This document shows, one piece after another, positions 3,326 through 11,234 of a stretch of DNA of 32,881 bases. Source of the stretch: a virus (Duplodnaviria > Heunggongvirae > Uroviricota > Caudoviricetes); the IMG/VR virus record IMGVR_UViG_2579778650_000028; one strand, written 5' to 3'. The notes below the pieces were generated by a model, which worked only from the letters and a program-made list of their open reading frames with translations, searched no databases and had not been told where the DNA came from. The stretch's first letter is position 1; the number at the start of each line of letters is the position of its first letter. The translations under genes were made by a program, and so were the position numbers.

Positions 3326-3553
3326 ATGATGGCCCGAAATATAAAAATGGCAACGGATGCGCAGAACTGGTTACAGGCGCGCGGGAGTCATGTAAATGAA
3401 TCATATCTCGGCGTGGCGCGTCCGATTCTTGAAATCACTTACCCACCGGTGGAACTGGTAAAAAACGCGGTCAGAATTATGGAGCATAAGTCCGGGGTGG
3501 CCCGTTCTGTATGGACGGCCCGTCTTAATGGTTGCCAGATTATCTGGAGATAA
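3326..3553 (+). CDS. small early protein, 75 aa, in the position of Mu kil (first gene after B)
   Basis: Strong RBS (GAAGGAGAAG) 6 nt upstream of ATG; tightly packed after B. Function inferred from position only. Confidence 0.5.
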
Positions 3554-3555
3554 CG

Positions 3556-3786
3556 ATGTGTACTAAAGCTGAAAAATATATTGAATGGGTTAAACGGGTA
3601 CAGAATAACAATGTGGCTCTGACTGCATTTAATTGCCCCAAATGCAAAGAGCAAATTATGACGCAATGCTCACCAGAAAATGAAGTATGGGACTCCTTTG
3701 CATGTTGTCCGTGGTGCAGCGCGGTTTTCTTTAAGCAGGTAAAAGGCGCGAAGGTAAAAGCCAGCGCAGTTATTCAGAATCAATAA
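3556..3786 (+). CDS. small Cys-rich (zinc-ribbon-like) early protein, about 77 aa
   Basis: ATG at 3556 preceded by GGAGA; CPKC...CCPWC motifs. Track ORF 3532..3786 uses an upstream alternative start. Confidence 0.5.
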   Translation: MCTKAEKYIEWVKRVQNNNVALTAFNCPKCKEQIMTQCSPENEVWDSFACCPWCSAVFFKQVKGAKVKASAVIQNQ

Positions 3787-5449: not shown

Positions 5450-5980
5450 ATGGTTGATGCAAAAATTCTGAATGGTGTCAGCACATTATTACGGGCTTAC
5501 GGACGCCTGACCTGCGGAGTTCTGGCTGAAAAAATGAATATGCTGCCCTCGTCAATGGTGTATTTCCTGCGTGATGCGGTTGATGCCGGAGTGCTCACCG
5601 AATGCAACGGATTTTATGACGTTCCGCGCCCGCGTCCGACGCCGCCTGTAAGACGAAACGCAACTGAGCAGCCTGCTGTTGATGATGCGGTGTGGTGCAA
5701 CTGGCGTCGCTCATTACCCTGGGTGGAAGGTAATACCATCCCCGCGCTGGCAAAAGAGTTTGCGACGGGCGTGCTGACCTGTGAGTCAGTTCACATTGTT
5801 GCTGAGGTGGATAACAGAATGTGCGAACAGGGAATGCCCCGTTTTGTGATGGCTTATATCGATATCCGGCTGGGGCGTTTTATTTGCAGTTCCAGCGCCT
5901 GGAATATCACCGACCATGTACTGCGTTATCTCATTCTTGATTGTTCTCCGGCTCCCGCAGCGGTGCAGGAGGTGGCGTGA
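5450..5980 (+). CDS. hypothetical early protein, 176 aa, possible N-terminal winged-helix
   Basis: RBS GAGGA upstream of ATG. Domain guess is weak and comes from sequence appearance only. Confidence 0.5.
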   Translation: MVDAKILNGVSTLLRAYGRLTCGVLAEKMNMLPSSMVYFLRDAVDAGVLTECNGFYDVPRPRPTPPVRRNATEQPAVDDAVWCNWRRSLPWVEGNTIPALAKEFATGVLTCESVHIVAEVDNRMCEQGMPRFVMAYIDIRLGRFICSSSAWNITDHVLRYLILDCSPAPAAVQEVA

Positions 5981-6510
5981 TGTTTTTTAAAACGTCAAAT
6001 CCCGCAGCACTGCTGGCATGGGACCAGTTTATGGCGGACTGCCTGAAACTACGCGAAGAAGCCCGCCATCTTGATAAGGTTCTGGGTTGTGGTTGCCGGT
6101 CAGTATTCAGCACAGGTATTGGTGGGCGTCATTTTCATGGCGTGAATTTTCCGGGGAATGAGCGACCTTTCTCGCCGGAGTTGTGGACTGTACAACGCTC
6201 CGCATCAGGTAACAGTTGCAGGCCAAGAACATCGCGCATTCCTGCACATCTGCGGGAGCAGTCAAAAGAGCTGGCGAAAATATGGCAGGAGAATATTCCG
6301 GTCACTTATGCCCGTACTGACGCTCTCTTACCCGCACTGGGACTGGATTTCAGCGCAACAATATTCGGCCCGCTCCGGTGGTTCCGTGTTGGTGATGTGA
6401 TTTACGTCATGACAGGGATGACTCCCGCACAGGGCCGCATGACTGAAATCCTTTCTGACGAATTTATCCGGGCGCAAAAACAGGCGGAGGTAAACAATGG
6501 AAAACAATGA
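5980..6510 (+). CDS. hypothetical early protein, about 176 aa
   Basis: ATG at 5980 overlaps the upstream stop (TGATG) with GGAGG 8 nt upstream. Track ORF 5941..6510 begins at an upstream TTG. Confidence 0.5.
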   Translation: MFFKTSNPAALLAWDQFMADCLKLREEARHLDKVLGCGCRSVFSTGIGGRHFHGVNFPGNERPFSPELWTVQRSASGNSCRPRTSRIPAHLREQSKELAKIWQENIPVTYARTDALLPALGLDFSATIFGPLRWFRVGDVIYVMTGMTPAQGRMTEILSDEFIRAQKQAEVNNGKQ

Positions 6511-6679
6511 AACATCGTATTCGTGGCTGGGGAAATTTACCACGGTGAAACAGGAATGCCCGACCTGCGGTAATGAATCCCCTGAATATCTGAAAGAGTG
6601 CCCTCATTGTGGCGGGCAGAAATGTAACCACTGCGATATGGGCGATGACACGGCGTGCATGAATTGTGAAGGTGAGTGA
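6497..6679 (+). CDS. small double zinc-ribbon protein, 60 aa
   Basis: Four CxxC pairs (CPTCG, CPHCG, CNHC, CMNC); GGAGG RBS upstream. Confidence 0.5.
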   Translation: MENNETSYSWLGKFTTVKQECPTCGNESPEYLKECPHCGGQKCNHCDMGDDTACMNCEGE

Positions 6680-6680
6680 C

Positions 6681-6989
6681 ATGAATAATGGTGTATTTTC
6701 AAAATCAGAAGAGCTTGCCGCCCTGCTGATTGCCGGTGGTTTGCCGAAAAAAGAAGTGCATGACTTTGTGAATTTTGTATATGAGCCGTCTCATGAAAAA
6801 GCTATTGATGAGGTCATGGCGTACCGGTTTGGCATTATTGCTGAGTCACTGAGTCCTCACTGGATTATTGAAAATCTCCGCGCTATTGCTGATGGCAACG
6901 ATAAATCAGCAGCCGTTGCTGCACTGGATGTGTTACGGCAAATGAGTCTGAAATTTTATCCTGAATTTATTCTGAGGGCCGCAAAATGA
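6681..6989 (+). CDS. hypothetical early protein, about 102 aa
   Basis: ATG at 6681 directly after the upstream stop, with GAAGGTGAG upstream. Track ORF starts at GTG 6666. Confidence 0.5.
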   Translation: MNNGVFSKSEELAALLIAGGLPKKEVHDFVNFVYEPSHEKAIDEVMAYRFGIIAESLSPHWIIENLRAIADGNDKSAAVAALDVLRQMSLKFYPEFILRAAK

Positions 6990-7288
6990 ACAATGAAGAT
7001 AAATTTACTCCCCTTAATATTGATAACGTCATGGCTGAAAAAGGGATGCTGGAACGTGTTCGCGCTATCGTTGAATATGGTATTAAGCATAATCTCACCG
7101 CCAGAGAAGTCCGTGACATTATCAACCGCGAAATGAATCGTCTGGAAACAGTAGTGGCACTGCAAAATGAAACAGCCCGCGAGGAGTACATCCGCCGCAG
7201 GCTGGGGTTATCAGACCAGGATATTGTTACTGACGCTCATGTGTTTGAGGCTTTTGAGATCCGTCAGCATCTGGGTCTAACGAACTGA
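6986..7288 (+). CDS. hypothetical early protein, 100 aa
   Basis: Start overlaps the upstream stop (ATGA); co-oriented with the early operon. Confidence 0.5.
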   Translation: MNNEDKFTPLNIDNVMAEKGMLERVRAIVEYGIKHNLTAREVRDIINREMNRLETVVALQNETAREEYIRRRLGLSDQDIVTDAHVFEAFEIRQHLGLTN

Positions 7289-10881: not shown

Positions 10882-11083
10882 TGCAGAACTGACGGAAGCA
10901 ACGCCCGTTCCGCCCATGCCACAGCCCCTGACGTGGGGAGCATCCCTTCTCTGGAATGCTGACCTGTTGATGGCGCTCGGGCAGTGCAACCGCGACAAGG
11001 CATCAGTCCGGGAACAGGAGACCCGAAGGAAAGAAATTTATGAACGAAGACCAGAACCGGGCGGTGGCGCTGCTGCTCGCTGA
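10742..11083 (+). CDS. outer-membrane lipoprotein spanin (Rz1-like), embedded in a shifted frame within Rz
   Basis: Lipoprotein signal with lipobox LLTGC and a Pro-rich mature region; starts inside Rz and runs past its stop. Confidence 0.5.
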   Translation: MMQNKKLQPPLPVTIAALVLCLPLLLTGCGNSKNAPVPSVVILPETDAELTEATPVPPMPQPLTWGASLLWNADLLMALGQCNRDKASVREQETRRKEIYERRPEPGGGAAAR

Positions 11084-11234
11084 ACTCTGGCAGGGGGATA
11101 CCCGTGATATTCCCCGCCCGGCGGCGTATGACCCGCCTGTATTGTGTCCCGGTTGCGGTCGTGAGCTGCGGCCTGATGTGCTGAGACAGCAGCCGATGGC
11201 GAACTACTGCCACTGGTGCCGTGGAGCAGAATAA
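11040..11234 (+). CDS. small zinc-ribbon protein, 64 aa
   Basis: CPGCG...CHWC motifs; co-oriented; overlaps neighbours at both ends. Confidence 0.4.
   Translation: MNEDQNRAVALLLAELWQGDTRDIPRPAAYDPPVLCPGCGRELRPDVLRQQPMANYCHWCRGAE

What the first reader, a model, noticed from the sequence alone, without database searches (positions are those of the whole stretch)
6497..6679. 60-aa double zinc-ribbon protein in the early region
Four CxxC pairs in 60 residues (CPTCG, CPHCG, CNHC, CMNC) with a strong RBS; likely a compact Zn-binding module of unknown target.
Basis: seen in the sequence. Interest (0 to 1): 0.4.

Follow-up and report, generated by a model that had tools for sequence, protein, structure and literature searches.

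The report
Phage Mu gene 13 zinc mini-protein
This is a real, strongly conserved 60-residue early gene of a Mu-type phage (the ortholog of Mu gene 13, old name E14) that encodes a very acidic eight-cysteine, probably two-zinc mini-domain shared by many unrelated phages; its function has never been determined.

Summary
Window 6497-6679 (+) is a 60-codon ORF with four CxxC pairs and a GGAGG ribosome-binding site 6 nt upstream. It is the only one of 283 window ORFs with four CxxC; 200 shuffles gave at most three.

The window is a Mu-family phage, and the ORF is the ortholog of Mu gene 13 (E14; 58/60 identical), annotated "hypothetical" everywhere.

The functional unit is a C-terminal ~41-residue core: E-C-P-x-C-G-x(9-35)-C-P-x-C-G-x2-K-C-x2-C-D-M-G-D-D-x2-C-x2-C-E. 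All eight Cys are invariant and net charge is about -6 to -9.
- An exhaustive profile search found 266 clusters at 50% identity.
- No Pfam or NCBIfam family and no solved or predicted structure matches the domain.
- Selection is strongly purifying (pN/pS 0.06-0.14 at near-saturated synonymous sites).
- The core outlasts its neighbours in distant Mu-like phages.
- It also occurs in non-Mu phages and as the C-terminal domain of unrelated fusion proteins.
- It sits in a hypervariable accessory slot between gam and gemA, and one Mu-like phage lacks it.

Best reading (inferred): a metal-stabilised acidic protein-binding module, an early accessory or host-interference factor. The target is unknown. 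The gene is ordinary as a database object but uncharacterised as a family.

The parts
6486..6491 (+). Shine-Dalgarno sequence GGAGGT, 6 nt spacer to the ATG
   Evidence: Read from the sequence. The equivalent site is annotated as a ribosome-binding site in phage Mu AF083977.
6497..6679 (+). CDS of 60 codons plus stop; ortholog of phage Mu gene 13 (Mu_13, AAF01090.1, old name E14); member of phrog_5584
   Evidence: 58/60 identical to Mu. (phrog_5584, E = 2.7e-44). (100% identical in Yersinia phages vB_YpM_5 and vB_YpM_6, SfMu and D108).
6497..6553 (+). Residues 1-19, a variable N-terminal leader. It is conserved only among close Mu relatives and has low model confidence.
   Evidence: Alignments A1 and A3. 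pLDDT is 51-64 for residues 1-20. N-terminal extensions in the family range from 3 to 274 residues.
6554..6676 (+). Residues 20-60, the conserved acidic 8-Cys core domain (E-CPxCG ... CPxCG-xxK-CxxC-DMGDD-xx-CxxC-ExE)
   Evidence: 8 Cys invariant; G25, K42, D47 and G49 at least 90% conserved. (pN/pS 0.06-0.14). (pLDDT about 86).
6557..6568 (+). Knuckle 1, C21-P-T-C24 (followed by near-invariant G25)
6599..6610 (+). Knuckle 2, C35-P-H-C38 (followed by G39). It sits at the tip of the predicted beta-hairpin formed by strands 32-34 and 41-43.
6623..6634 (+). Knuckle 3, C43-N-H-C46, preceded by near-invariant K42
6635..6649 (+). Signature acidic loop D47-M-G-D-D51 between knuckles 3 and 4
   Evidence: D 94/98, M 82/98, G 97/98, D 82/98, D 78/98 among representatives that carry the motif.
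6656..6667 (+). Knuckle 4, C54-M-N-C57, followed by the acidic tail E-G-E
5980..6510 (+). Upstream gene, the Mu gp12 (E13) ortholog, 176 aa, phrog_2314. It overlaps the start of gene 13 by 14 nt. It is context only and not an obligate partner.
   Evidence: gp12 is absent from several loci that carry gp13, and present without gp13 in PhiR68_1.
6681..6989 (+). Downstream gene, 102 aa, phrog_1988. It is a cassette absent from Mu itself (context only).

Best explanation
The ORF is a genuine, expressed-type early gene, the ortholog of phage Mu gene 13 (E14). Its product is a small, very acidic protein. The C-terminal ~41 residues fold around metal held by eight invariant cysteines. Most likely there are two Zn(Cys)4 sites: knuckles 1 and 2, both CPxCG, form a classical zinc-ribbon or rubredoxin-type site, and knuckles 3 and 4 bracket the invariant D-M-G-D-D loop to form the second site. 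The domain is a self-contained, portable module. I infer that it works by binding another protein, using the exposed acidic loop and acidic tail. That would make it a non-essential early accessory or host-interference factor: an inhibitor or adaptor aimed at a host or phage protein of DNA transactions or defence. It is unlikely to bind nucleic acid or to act as an enzyme. Shown: gene identity, conservation pattern, selection, distribution, portability and context. Inferred: metal identity and stoichiometry, ligand pairing, the protein-binding mode and the class of target.
For: Identity: 58/60 identical to Mu gene 13, with the same position and RBS. Real coding gene: pN/pS is 0.06-0.14 against distant Mu-like loci whose synonymous sites are near saturation (pS 0.70-0.96). 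Its core stays 86-92% identical where gam (54-62%), gp11 (59-69%), gp12 (52-66%), gemA (39-49%) and mor (25-31%) have drifted. Metal module: all 8 Cys are invariant, and 98 of the roughly 160 retrieved sequences share the strict spacing. AF2 with 82 sequences gives pLDDT about 86 over residues 21-50. The first half aligns weakly to single C4 sites of LysW, RadA, rubrerythrin and L32. Portable C-terminal module: it is always C-terminal, with N-terminal extensions of 3 to 274 residues. There is a true in-frame fusion to an unrelated 175-aa domain in Mu-like loci L007-L010. Other fusions carry other N-domains, including sub-threshold Phage_ProQ_C_like matches. Acidic: domain net charge is mostly -6 to -9 before counting thiolates, with only one conserved basic residue, K42. 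Accessory early gene: it lies in the co-directional early operon between gam and gemA. A distant transposable phage keeps it in the same slot (L096). The flanks are mosaic, and Mu-like phage PhiR68_1 replaces it with unrelated genes. It also occurs in non-Mu phages, within arrays of small early ORFs beside nucleases, ligase, ParB-like proteins and DNA polymerase genes. It is sporadic in bacteria: 17 of about 185,000 species genomes, all Gamma- or Betaproteobacteria, and 35 of 5,426 E. coli genomes.
Against: There is no direct evidence for any binding partner or phenotype. No neighbour is conserved across lineages. No structural neighbour gives a functional lead (best Foldseek E-values are 2.1 against PDB and 0.66 against BFVD). 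Metal stoichiometry may be one rather than two, as in HVO_2753. Acidity alone does not prove protein binding. No literature on this gene was found in the library searched.
Confidence: 0.5

Rival explanations
1. It is a detached C-terminal domain or obligate subunit of the product of the gene just upstream (gp12 in Mu). The two are made by translational coupling and act as one two-part protein.
For: There is a 14-nt overlap with gp12. In L007-L010 the same domain is fused in frame to whatever occupies the upstream position. Many family members carry N-terminal domains. Start-stop overlaps with the upstream ORF occur in unrelated phages.
Against: The upstream or fused partners are unrelated to each other and to gp12. 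gp13 occurs without gp12 (L024-L026, L028, L036, L039), and gp12 occurs without gp13 (PhiR68_1). Many members are only 45-53 aa, that is, the core alone. Tight overlaps are the norm in phage operons. The gene has its own strong RBS.
Confidence: 0.2
2. It is a nucleic-acid-binding zinc-finger regulator, for example a translational or transcriptional factor like Mu Com, acting on phage or host RNA or DNA.
For: Small Cys4 proteins often bind nucleic acids. Mu already uses one, Com, as a translational activator (established knowledge, not tested here). Some fusions have possible nucleic-acid-binding N-domains: ProQ_C-like at 26.6 bits against a 27-bit cut-off, and winged-helix-looking segments judged by eye.
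Against: The domain is strongly acidic, with a single conserved basic residue and an acidic tail. That is the opposite of known nucleic-acid-binding zinc ribbons. If the N-domains bind nucleic acid, the Zn module would more likely be the protein-recruiting part.
Confidence: 0.08
3. It is a rubredoxin-like iron or redox centre, or a metal-handling (sequestering or chaperone) mini-protein.
For: Knuckles 1 and 2 are of the CPxCG rubredoxin type. There are weak profile matches to rubrerythrin and nigerythrin rubredoxin domains (E about 0.08-0.1) and to rubredoxin-like models.
Against: All matches are below threshold. No redox partner genes are nearby. The aromatic residues typical of rubredoxins are not conserved. 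A phage early accessory slot is an unusual place for electron carriers.
Confidence: 0.05
4. It is not a functional protein. It is a chance ORF, or the conservation belongs to the antisense ORF (6464..6682, minus strand, 72 aa) or to a DNA or RNA element.
For: An antisense ORF of similar size exists. Old Mu annotation listed minus-strand putative ORFs here.
Against: pN/pS is 0.06-0.14 in the plus-strand frame. The 8-Cys pattern is kept down to about 40% identity in unrelated genomes. The shuffle test and the RBS also argue against it.
Confidence: 0.01

Closest known systems
Phage Mu gene 13 product (Mu_13 / AAF01090.1, formerly E14); PHROG family phrog_5584
   Same: Orthologous: 58/60 identical, with the same position, RBS and overlap with gene 12. 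The match to phrog_5584 is full-length, E = 2.7e-44.
   Different: Nothing of substance differs (two substitutions, E5K and Q41L). That entry is itself only a 'hypothetical protein', so the match gives a name but no function.
Classical zinc ribbons and rubredoxin-type C4 knuckle pairs (Pfam Zn_Ribbon_1, Zn_ribbon_LapB, DZR; solved examples LysW 5K2M, RadA N-terminus 5LKM, rubrerythrin 1NNQ)
   Same: Knuckles 1 and 2 are CPxCG motifs separated by a variable loop, the hallmark of a single C4 zinc-ribbon or rubredoxin site. There are weak alignments over profile positions 2-26.
   Different: All scores are below the curated cut-offs. At most 3 of 82 members touch any such model. The second half, K-CxxC-DMGDD-xx-CxxC, and the strong acidity have no counterpart in those families.
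DnaJ cysteine-rich domain (Pfam PF00684, four CxxCxGxG repeats, two Zn)
   Same: Four CxxC repeats in about 40-60 residues that bind two metals. It is the best, though weak, Pfam hit (E = 0.0015).
   Different: The score is 19.2 bits against a cut-off of 32.7. Only knuckle 2 has the GxG-like continuation. The spacing (10/4/7) differs, and there is no J-domain or chaperone context.
HVO_2753 of Haloferax volcanii (DUF1610, PDB 6YDH), a 59-aa protein with four C(P)xCG motifs
   Same: A stand-alone protein of about 60 aa with four CxxC motifs. It appears as a full-length but insignificant profile match (E = 0.66).
   Different: It is archaeal and there is no detectable homology. It binds only one zinc despite four motifs (PMC11241148). 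This is a warning for the two-zinc assumption here.
Lar-type restriction-alleviation proteins of lambdoid prophages (Pfam PF14354, TIGR03655)
   Same: A small Cys-pair protein from a phage early or accessory region with an anti-host-nuclease role. It is a functional analogy worth testing.
   Different: Scores are far below cut-off (11.8 vs 28.6 bits; 14.9 vs 39.6 bits). It is not a member.
Small acidic phage inhibitors of host DNA enzymes (Ocr, ArdA, T7 gp5.9; from general knowledge, not tested here)
   Same: Small, strongly acidic, early-expressed and dispensable in the laboratory. This gene also sits in the same operon as the nuclease inhibitor Gam.
   Different: There is no sequence or fold relationship. 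Those proteins are not metal-stabilised. The analogy is an inference only.

Membership tests
Phage Mu gp13 (E14) orthologs / phrog_5584 | Full-length sequence match to the family profile and to Mu gp13 | tested here: met
   phrog_5584 E = 2.7e-44 over residues 1-60 of 60; 58/60 identical to Mu_13.
Phage Mu gp13 (E14) orthologs / phrog_5584 | Syntenic position in the early operon, between gp12 and gemA, downstream of gam | tested here: met
8-Cys 'CDMGDD' domain family (defined here; no database model) | C-x2-C-G ... C-P-x-C-x4-C-x2-C-D-M-G-D-D-x2-C-x2-C at the C-terminus, with an acidic tail | tested here: met
   The window protein fits the strict regular expression. 98 retrieved sequences share it, and the profile search gave 266 hits at E <= 1e-3.
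Pfam DZR, double zinc ribbon (PF12773) | Score at or above the gathering cut-off of 27.3 bits | tested here: not met
   16.2 bits, E = 0.012. Only 1 of 82 family members reaches E < 0.001.
Pfam DnaJ_CXXCXGXG (PF00684) | Score at or above the gathering cut-off of 32.7 bits; four CxxCxGxG repeats | tested here: not met
   19.2 bits. Only knuckle 2 continues with GG. 1 of 82 members reaches E < 0.001.
Lar restriction-alleviation family (PF14354 / TIGR03655) | Score at or above the curated cut-offs (28.6 and 39.6 bits) | tested here: not met
   11.8 bits and 14.9 bits.
Two-zinc Cys8 metalloprotein | Two metal ions bound per chain by the four CxxC pairs | not testable with these tools
   All eight Cys are invariant, but the HVO_2753 precedent binds one Zn with four motifs. 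This needs ICP-MS or a PAR assay, or NMR.
Known anti-phage defence components (PADLOC-DB) | Any model hit | tested here: not met
   No hits for gp13 or for its four neighbours.
Any solved or predicted structure family | Foldseek or HMM match at a significant E-value | tested here: not met
   PDB sequence profile search: best E = 0.057, first ribbon only. Foldseek best E = 2.1 against PDB and 0.66 against BFVD.

The most novel reading that the evidence does not exclude
The 8-Cys 'CDMGDD' module is a previously unrecognised, widely shared phage counter-defence or host-takeover domain. It would be a zinc-stapled acidic mini-protein, used free-standing or fused to targeting domains, that plugs the DNA-binding or active site of a conserved proteobacterial nuclease, repair or defence protein. 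It would complement Gam in the Mu early operon.
Probability: 0.2. Interest if true: 0.6.

Novelty: new member of a known kind. Interest (0 to 1): 0.3.

Why it matters
Mu is a textbook phage, yet most genes of its semi-essential early region, including this one, have had no function assigned since they were sequenced. This work shows that gene 13 is the best-conserved element of its neighbourhood. It also shows that its core is a portable domain found in hundreds of phage lineages but absent from Pfam, NCBIfam and the PDB. That makes it a well-defined candidate for a host-interaction or anti-defence screen and for a new domain family entry. If the target proved to be a conserved host nuclease or defence protein, the 41-residue module would be among the smallest known phage inhibitors. 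As things stand it is a solid but ordinary 'conserved hypothetical'.

Tried and rejected
1. Pfam, NCBIfam, PADLOC and PDB sequence searches gave only sub-threshold generic zinc-ribbon, rubredoxin, DnaJ or Lar similarities.
2. A first AF2 run with 11 sequences was too poor to use (pLDDT 50.7). The second run (82 sequences, pLDDT 74.9) gave no significant Foldseek neighbours. The weak top hits are assorted binuclear zinc modules (C1, FYVE, PHD, TFIIH p44) and I do not rely on them.
3. I suspected that phrog_6418 (231 aa) was a gp12-gp13 fusion, which would imply frameshifting in Mu. This was rejected: its N-domain is unrelated to gp12. Joining gp12 to gp13 in this window would need a +1 shift, and nothing supports that.
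4. Clustering the four ORFs on each side of the gene across 73 loci in 21 core groups found no conserved partner. The best case was a DEDD-type exonuclease in 3 groups.
5. The long multi-repeat proteins in the profile search match only the first ribbon (profile positions about 12-38). I set them aside as generic.
6. My first motif regular expression had the wrong spacing and found nothing. It was corrected.
I repeated it with a narrower alignment, so that count is a lower bound restricted to KCxxCDMGD.
8. Nine literature searches found nothing on Mu gene 13, E14, the CDMGDD motif or the PHROG ids. 'Mup13' returned only mouse urinary proteins.

Full report
**What is there**

Window 6497-6679 on the + strand is a 60-codon ORF (ATG to TGA). 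It encodes MENNETSYSWLGKFTTVKQECPTCGNESPEYLKECPHCGGQKCNHCDMGDDTACMNCEGE. The four CxxC pairs lie at residues 21-24, 35-38, 43-46 and 54-57. GGAGG lies at 6486-6490, six bases before the ATG.

The gene overlaps the end of the upstream gene by 14 nt, and the next gene starts two bases after its stop. Among 283 six-frame ORFs of at least 40 aa in the window, it is the only one with more than two CxxC. In 200 shuffles of the window no ORF reached four.

**Identity**

The surrounding DNA is 100% identical to Yersinia phages vB_YpM_5 and vB_YpM_6. It is 99.4% identical to Shigella phage SfMu and about 96% to coliphage Mu. The window begins with ner, A (697 aa), B (312 aa), kil and further small early genes, then gam, gp11 and gp12. 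The finding comes next, followed by two small genes, gemA and mor, all on one strand.

The ORF is the ortholog of Mu gene 13 (Mu_13, AAF01090.1, 'previously called E14'), with 58 of 60 residues identical. Mu has the same annotated ribosome-binding site and the same overlap with gene 12. It is annotated 'hypothetical protein' in every phage record and in RefSeq E. coli genomes. It belongs to phrog_5584, function unknown.

**The family**

The word-indexed search found only 14 close clusters. The exhaustive profile search of 1.84 billion representatives found 266 proteins at E <= 1e-3 and 30 at E <= 1e-10. There are two classes of hit:
- Long multi-repeat zinc-ribbon proteins that match only the first ribbon. 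These are generic.
- Small proteins that match the whole core.

Of the sequences retrieved, 98 share the strict pattern C-x2-C-(5-40)-C-x2-C-x4-C-x2-C-x7-C-x2-C. Their conservation is as follows:
- All 8 Cys are invariant.
- G follows Cys2 in 94/98 and K precedes Cys5 in 96/98.
- The loop D-M-G-D-D is conserved at 94, 82, 97, 82 and 78 of 98.
- E or D usually follows the last Cys.

The domain is always C-terminal and is followed by a short acidic tail. Its net charge is mostly -6 to -9. The region before it ranges from 3 to 274 residues and is unrelated between lineages. The only variable spacing is the loop between knuckles 1 and 2, which is 9-35 residues.

No Pfam, NCBIfam or PADLOC model reaches its threshold. 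At most 3 of 82 members touch any generic zinc-ribbon model. No PDB chain matches beyond the first ribbon, with best E = 0.057.

**Is it a functional protein?**

Yes. Against the more distant Mu-like loci (L030-L045), synonymous differences are near saturation (pS 0.70-0.96) while pN is 0.05-0.10. That gives pN/pS of 0.06-0.14 in this frame.

In those same loci the gp13 core remains 86-92% identical, while its neighbours have diverged much further: gam to 54-62%, gp11 to 59-69%, gp12 to 52-66%, gemA to 39-49% and mor to 25-31%. This excludes a chance ORF and the antisense ORF at 6464..6682.

**Structure**

With 11 sequences AlphaFold2 failed (pLDDT 50.7). With 82 sequences it gave mean pLDDT 74.9, with about 86 over residues 21-50. 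The N-terminus has low confidence, and there are two short strands (32-34 and 41-43) flanking knuckle 2. Foldseek found nothing significant in the PDB (best E = 2.1) or BFVD (best E = 0.66).

Three points lead me to infer sequential sites (1+2 and 3+4):
- Knuckles 1 and 2 are both CPxCG.
- The variable loop lies between them.
- This half aligns weakly to single C4 sites of LysW, RadA, rubrerythrin and L32.

Two zinc ions are likely but unproven. The archaeal four-motif protein HVO_2753 (PDB 6YDH) binds only one (PMC11241148).

**Context and distribution**

Within Mu-like phages the flanks are mosaic.
- gp12 is missing from several loci that carry gp13.
- The window's downstream gene (6681-6989) is absent from Mu itself.
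- In Mu-like phage PhiR68_1, gp13 is replaced by two unrelated ORFs.

So gp13 is a dispensable cassette in a hypervariable segment between gp12 and gemA.

In loci L007-L010 residues 7-60 of gp13 are fused in frame to an unrelated 175-aa N-domain. This gives a 231-aa protein, phrog_6418, starting at a GTG with its own AGGAGG.

A distant transposable phage has the gene immediately after gam and before gemA and mor, in the order rve transposase, AAA_22, Kil, Gam, [gene], GemA, Mor (L096).

Outside transposable phages it occurs in several settings:
- Klebsiella phage Kpn BU9, between a 264-aa protein and an exonuclease, near the SSB and DNA polymerase genes.
- Contigs of about 58 kb, next to a ParB_N-like gene and DNA polymerase A.
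- A 103-kb contig, two genes from a DNA ligase.
- Other long arrays of small co-directional ORFs.

Clustering the four ORFs on either side across 21 core groups found no conserved partner. The best case was a DEDD-type exonuclease in three groups.

In species-representative bacterial genomes the motif occurs in only 17, all Gamma- or Betaproteobacteria. It occurs in 35 of 5,426 complete E. coli genomes. It is a phage gene.

**How it most likely works**

The data show a self-sufficient, metal-stapled, strongly acidic mini-domain with these properties:
- It is made from the early operon.
- It is dispensable for the phage backbone.
- It is exchanged between unrelated phages.
- It can be appended to different N-terminal domains.

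That profile fits a protein-binding module: an inhibitor or adaptor acting on a host or phage protein. The invariant D-M-G-D-D loop and acidic tail are the likely contact surface. The recurrent neighbourhood of nucleases, ligase, ParB-like and replication genes, and its place in the operon that also carries Gam, suggest DNA transactions or defence as the arena.

I put about 0.5 on this general mechanism. I put about 0.2 on the sharper version, that it is a new anti-nuclease or anti-defence inhibitor.

Rivals:
- A detached domain or subunit of the upstream gene product (0.2). The independent occurrence of gp12 and gp13 and the unrelated partners weaken it.
- A nucleic-acid-binding regulator like Mu Com (0.08). 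The charge argues against it.
- A rubredoxin-like or metal-handling protein (0.05).
- A non-functional ORF (0.01, effectively refuted).

**Comparison with the known**

It is a member of Mu gp13 / phrog_5584, and both tests were met. It is not a member of Pfam DZR, DnaJ_CXXCXGXG or Lar; each was tested and not met. It resembles zinc ribbons and rubredoxin knuckles in its first half only.

Functionally it may work like small acidic phage inhibitors such as Ocr or T7 gp5.9. That is an analogy from general knowledge, not a tested relationship.

**Verdict**

This is a real gene and a correctly described feature. It has been catalogued for decades as a hypothetical protein. The new points here are:
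- the definition of the portable 8-Cys 'CDMGDD' domain and its breadth;
- its unusually strong conservation relative to its neighbours;
- its fusion architectures;
- its cassette behaviour.

Function remains untested. Interest is modest (0.3). It is a good, cheap target for metal analysis, interaction screening and a deletion phenotype on defence-proficient hosts.

Noticed in passing
window 3532..3786 (+) (probable true start near 3556): The Mu gp6-like early ORF also carries two CxxC pairs (CPKC ... CPWC). It is therefore a second small Cys4 protein in the same operon. The Pfam family Phage_Mu_gp6 (PF26833) also appears in the unrelated ~58-kb phage contigs L005 and L006, which carry a gp13-like gene.
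   Followed up: partly
window 11040..11234 (+): A 64-aa ORF with CPGC ... CHWC, another candidate small zinc-ribbon protein downstream of the early region.
   Followed up: no
window 6681..6989 (+): This 102-aa gene (phrog_1988) is absent from phage Mu, where gene 13 is followed directly by the homolog of window 6986..7288. The gp12-to-gemA segment is a hypervariable cassette slot.
   Followed up: partly
L098 3102-4114 (Escherichia phage PhiR68_1, PV340575.1): In this Mu-like phage gene 13 is replaced by unrelated 222-aa and 113-aa ORFs. The 222-aa protein begins MKERGVAFNDDMVRAILEGRKTQTRR, which looks ASCH-like by eye only.
   Followed up: partly
L008 4440-5135 (also L007, L009, L010): A 231-aa protein that is an in-frame fusion of an unrelated 175-aa N-domain (phrog_6418 and phrog_2510, no Pfam hit) with gp13 residues 7-60. 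gp12 is missing from these Mu-like prophages.
   Followed up: yes
L055 and L056 (IMGVR_UViG_3300012078_000004, 83 kb): The same gp13-like locus occurs twice in inverted orientation on one viral contig. This is either an inverted duplication or an assembly artefact.
   Followed up: no
L062-L075, L080-L093: A long-linker subfamily (...NYRETDDECPxCGATxxxRKxNKPxxPQGLxxCPxCGxEKCCMCDMGDDVEC) dominates in Betaproteobacteria such as Rubrivivax, Paucibacter and Aquabacterium. In L062 the upstream neighbour looks like an N6-adenine DNA methyltransferase (NPPF motif, by eye).
   Followed up: no
P0037, P0071, P0112, P0135 (metagenomic proteins): Proteins of about 155-167 aa in which the 8-Cys domain follows an N-terminal region. 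For two of the four (P0037 and P0112) that region is just below the Pfam cut-off for Phage_ProQ_C_like (PF24203; 26.6 and 19.7 bits against a cut-off of 27); P0071 and P0135 gave no Pfam hit.
   Followed up: partly
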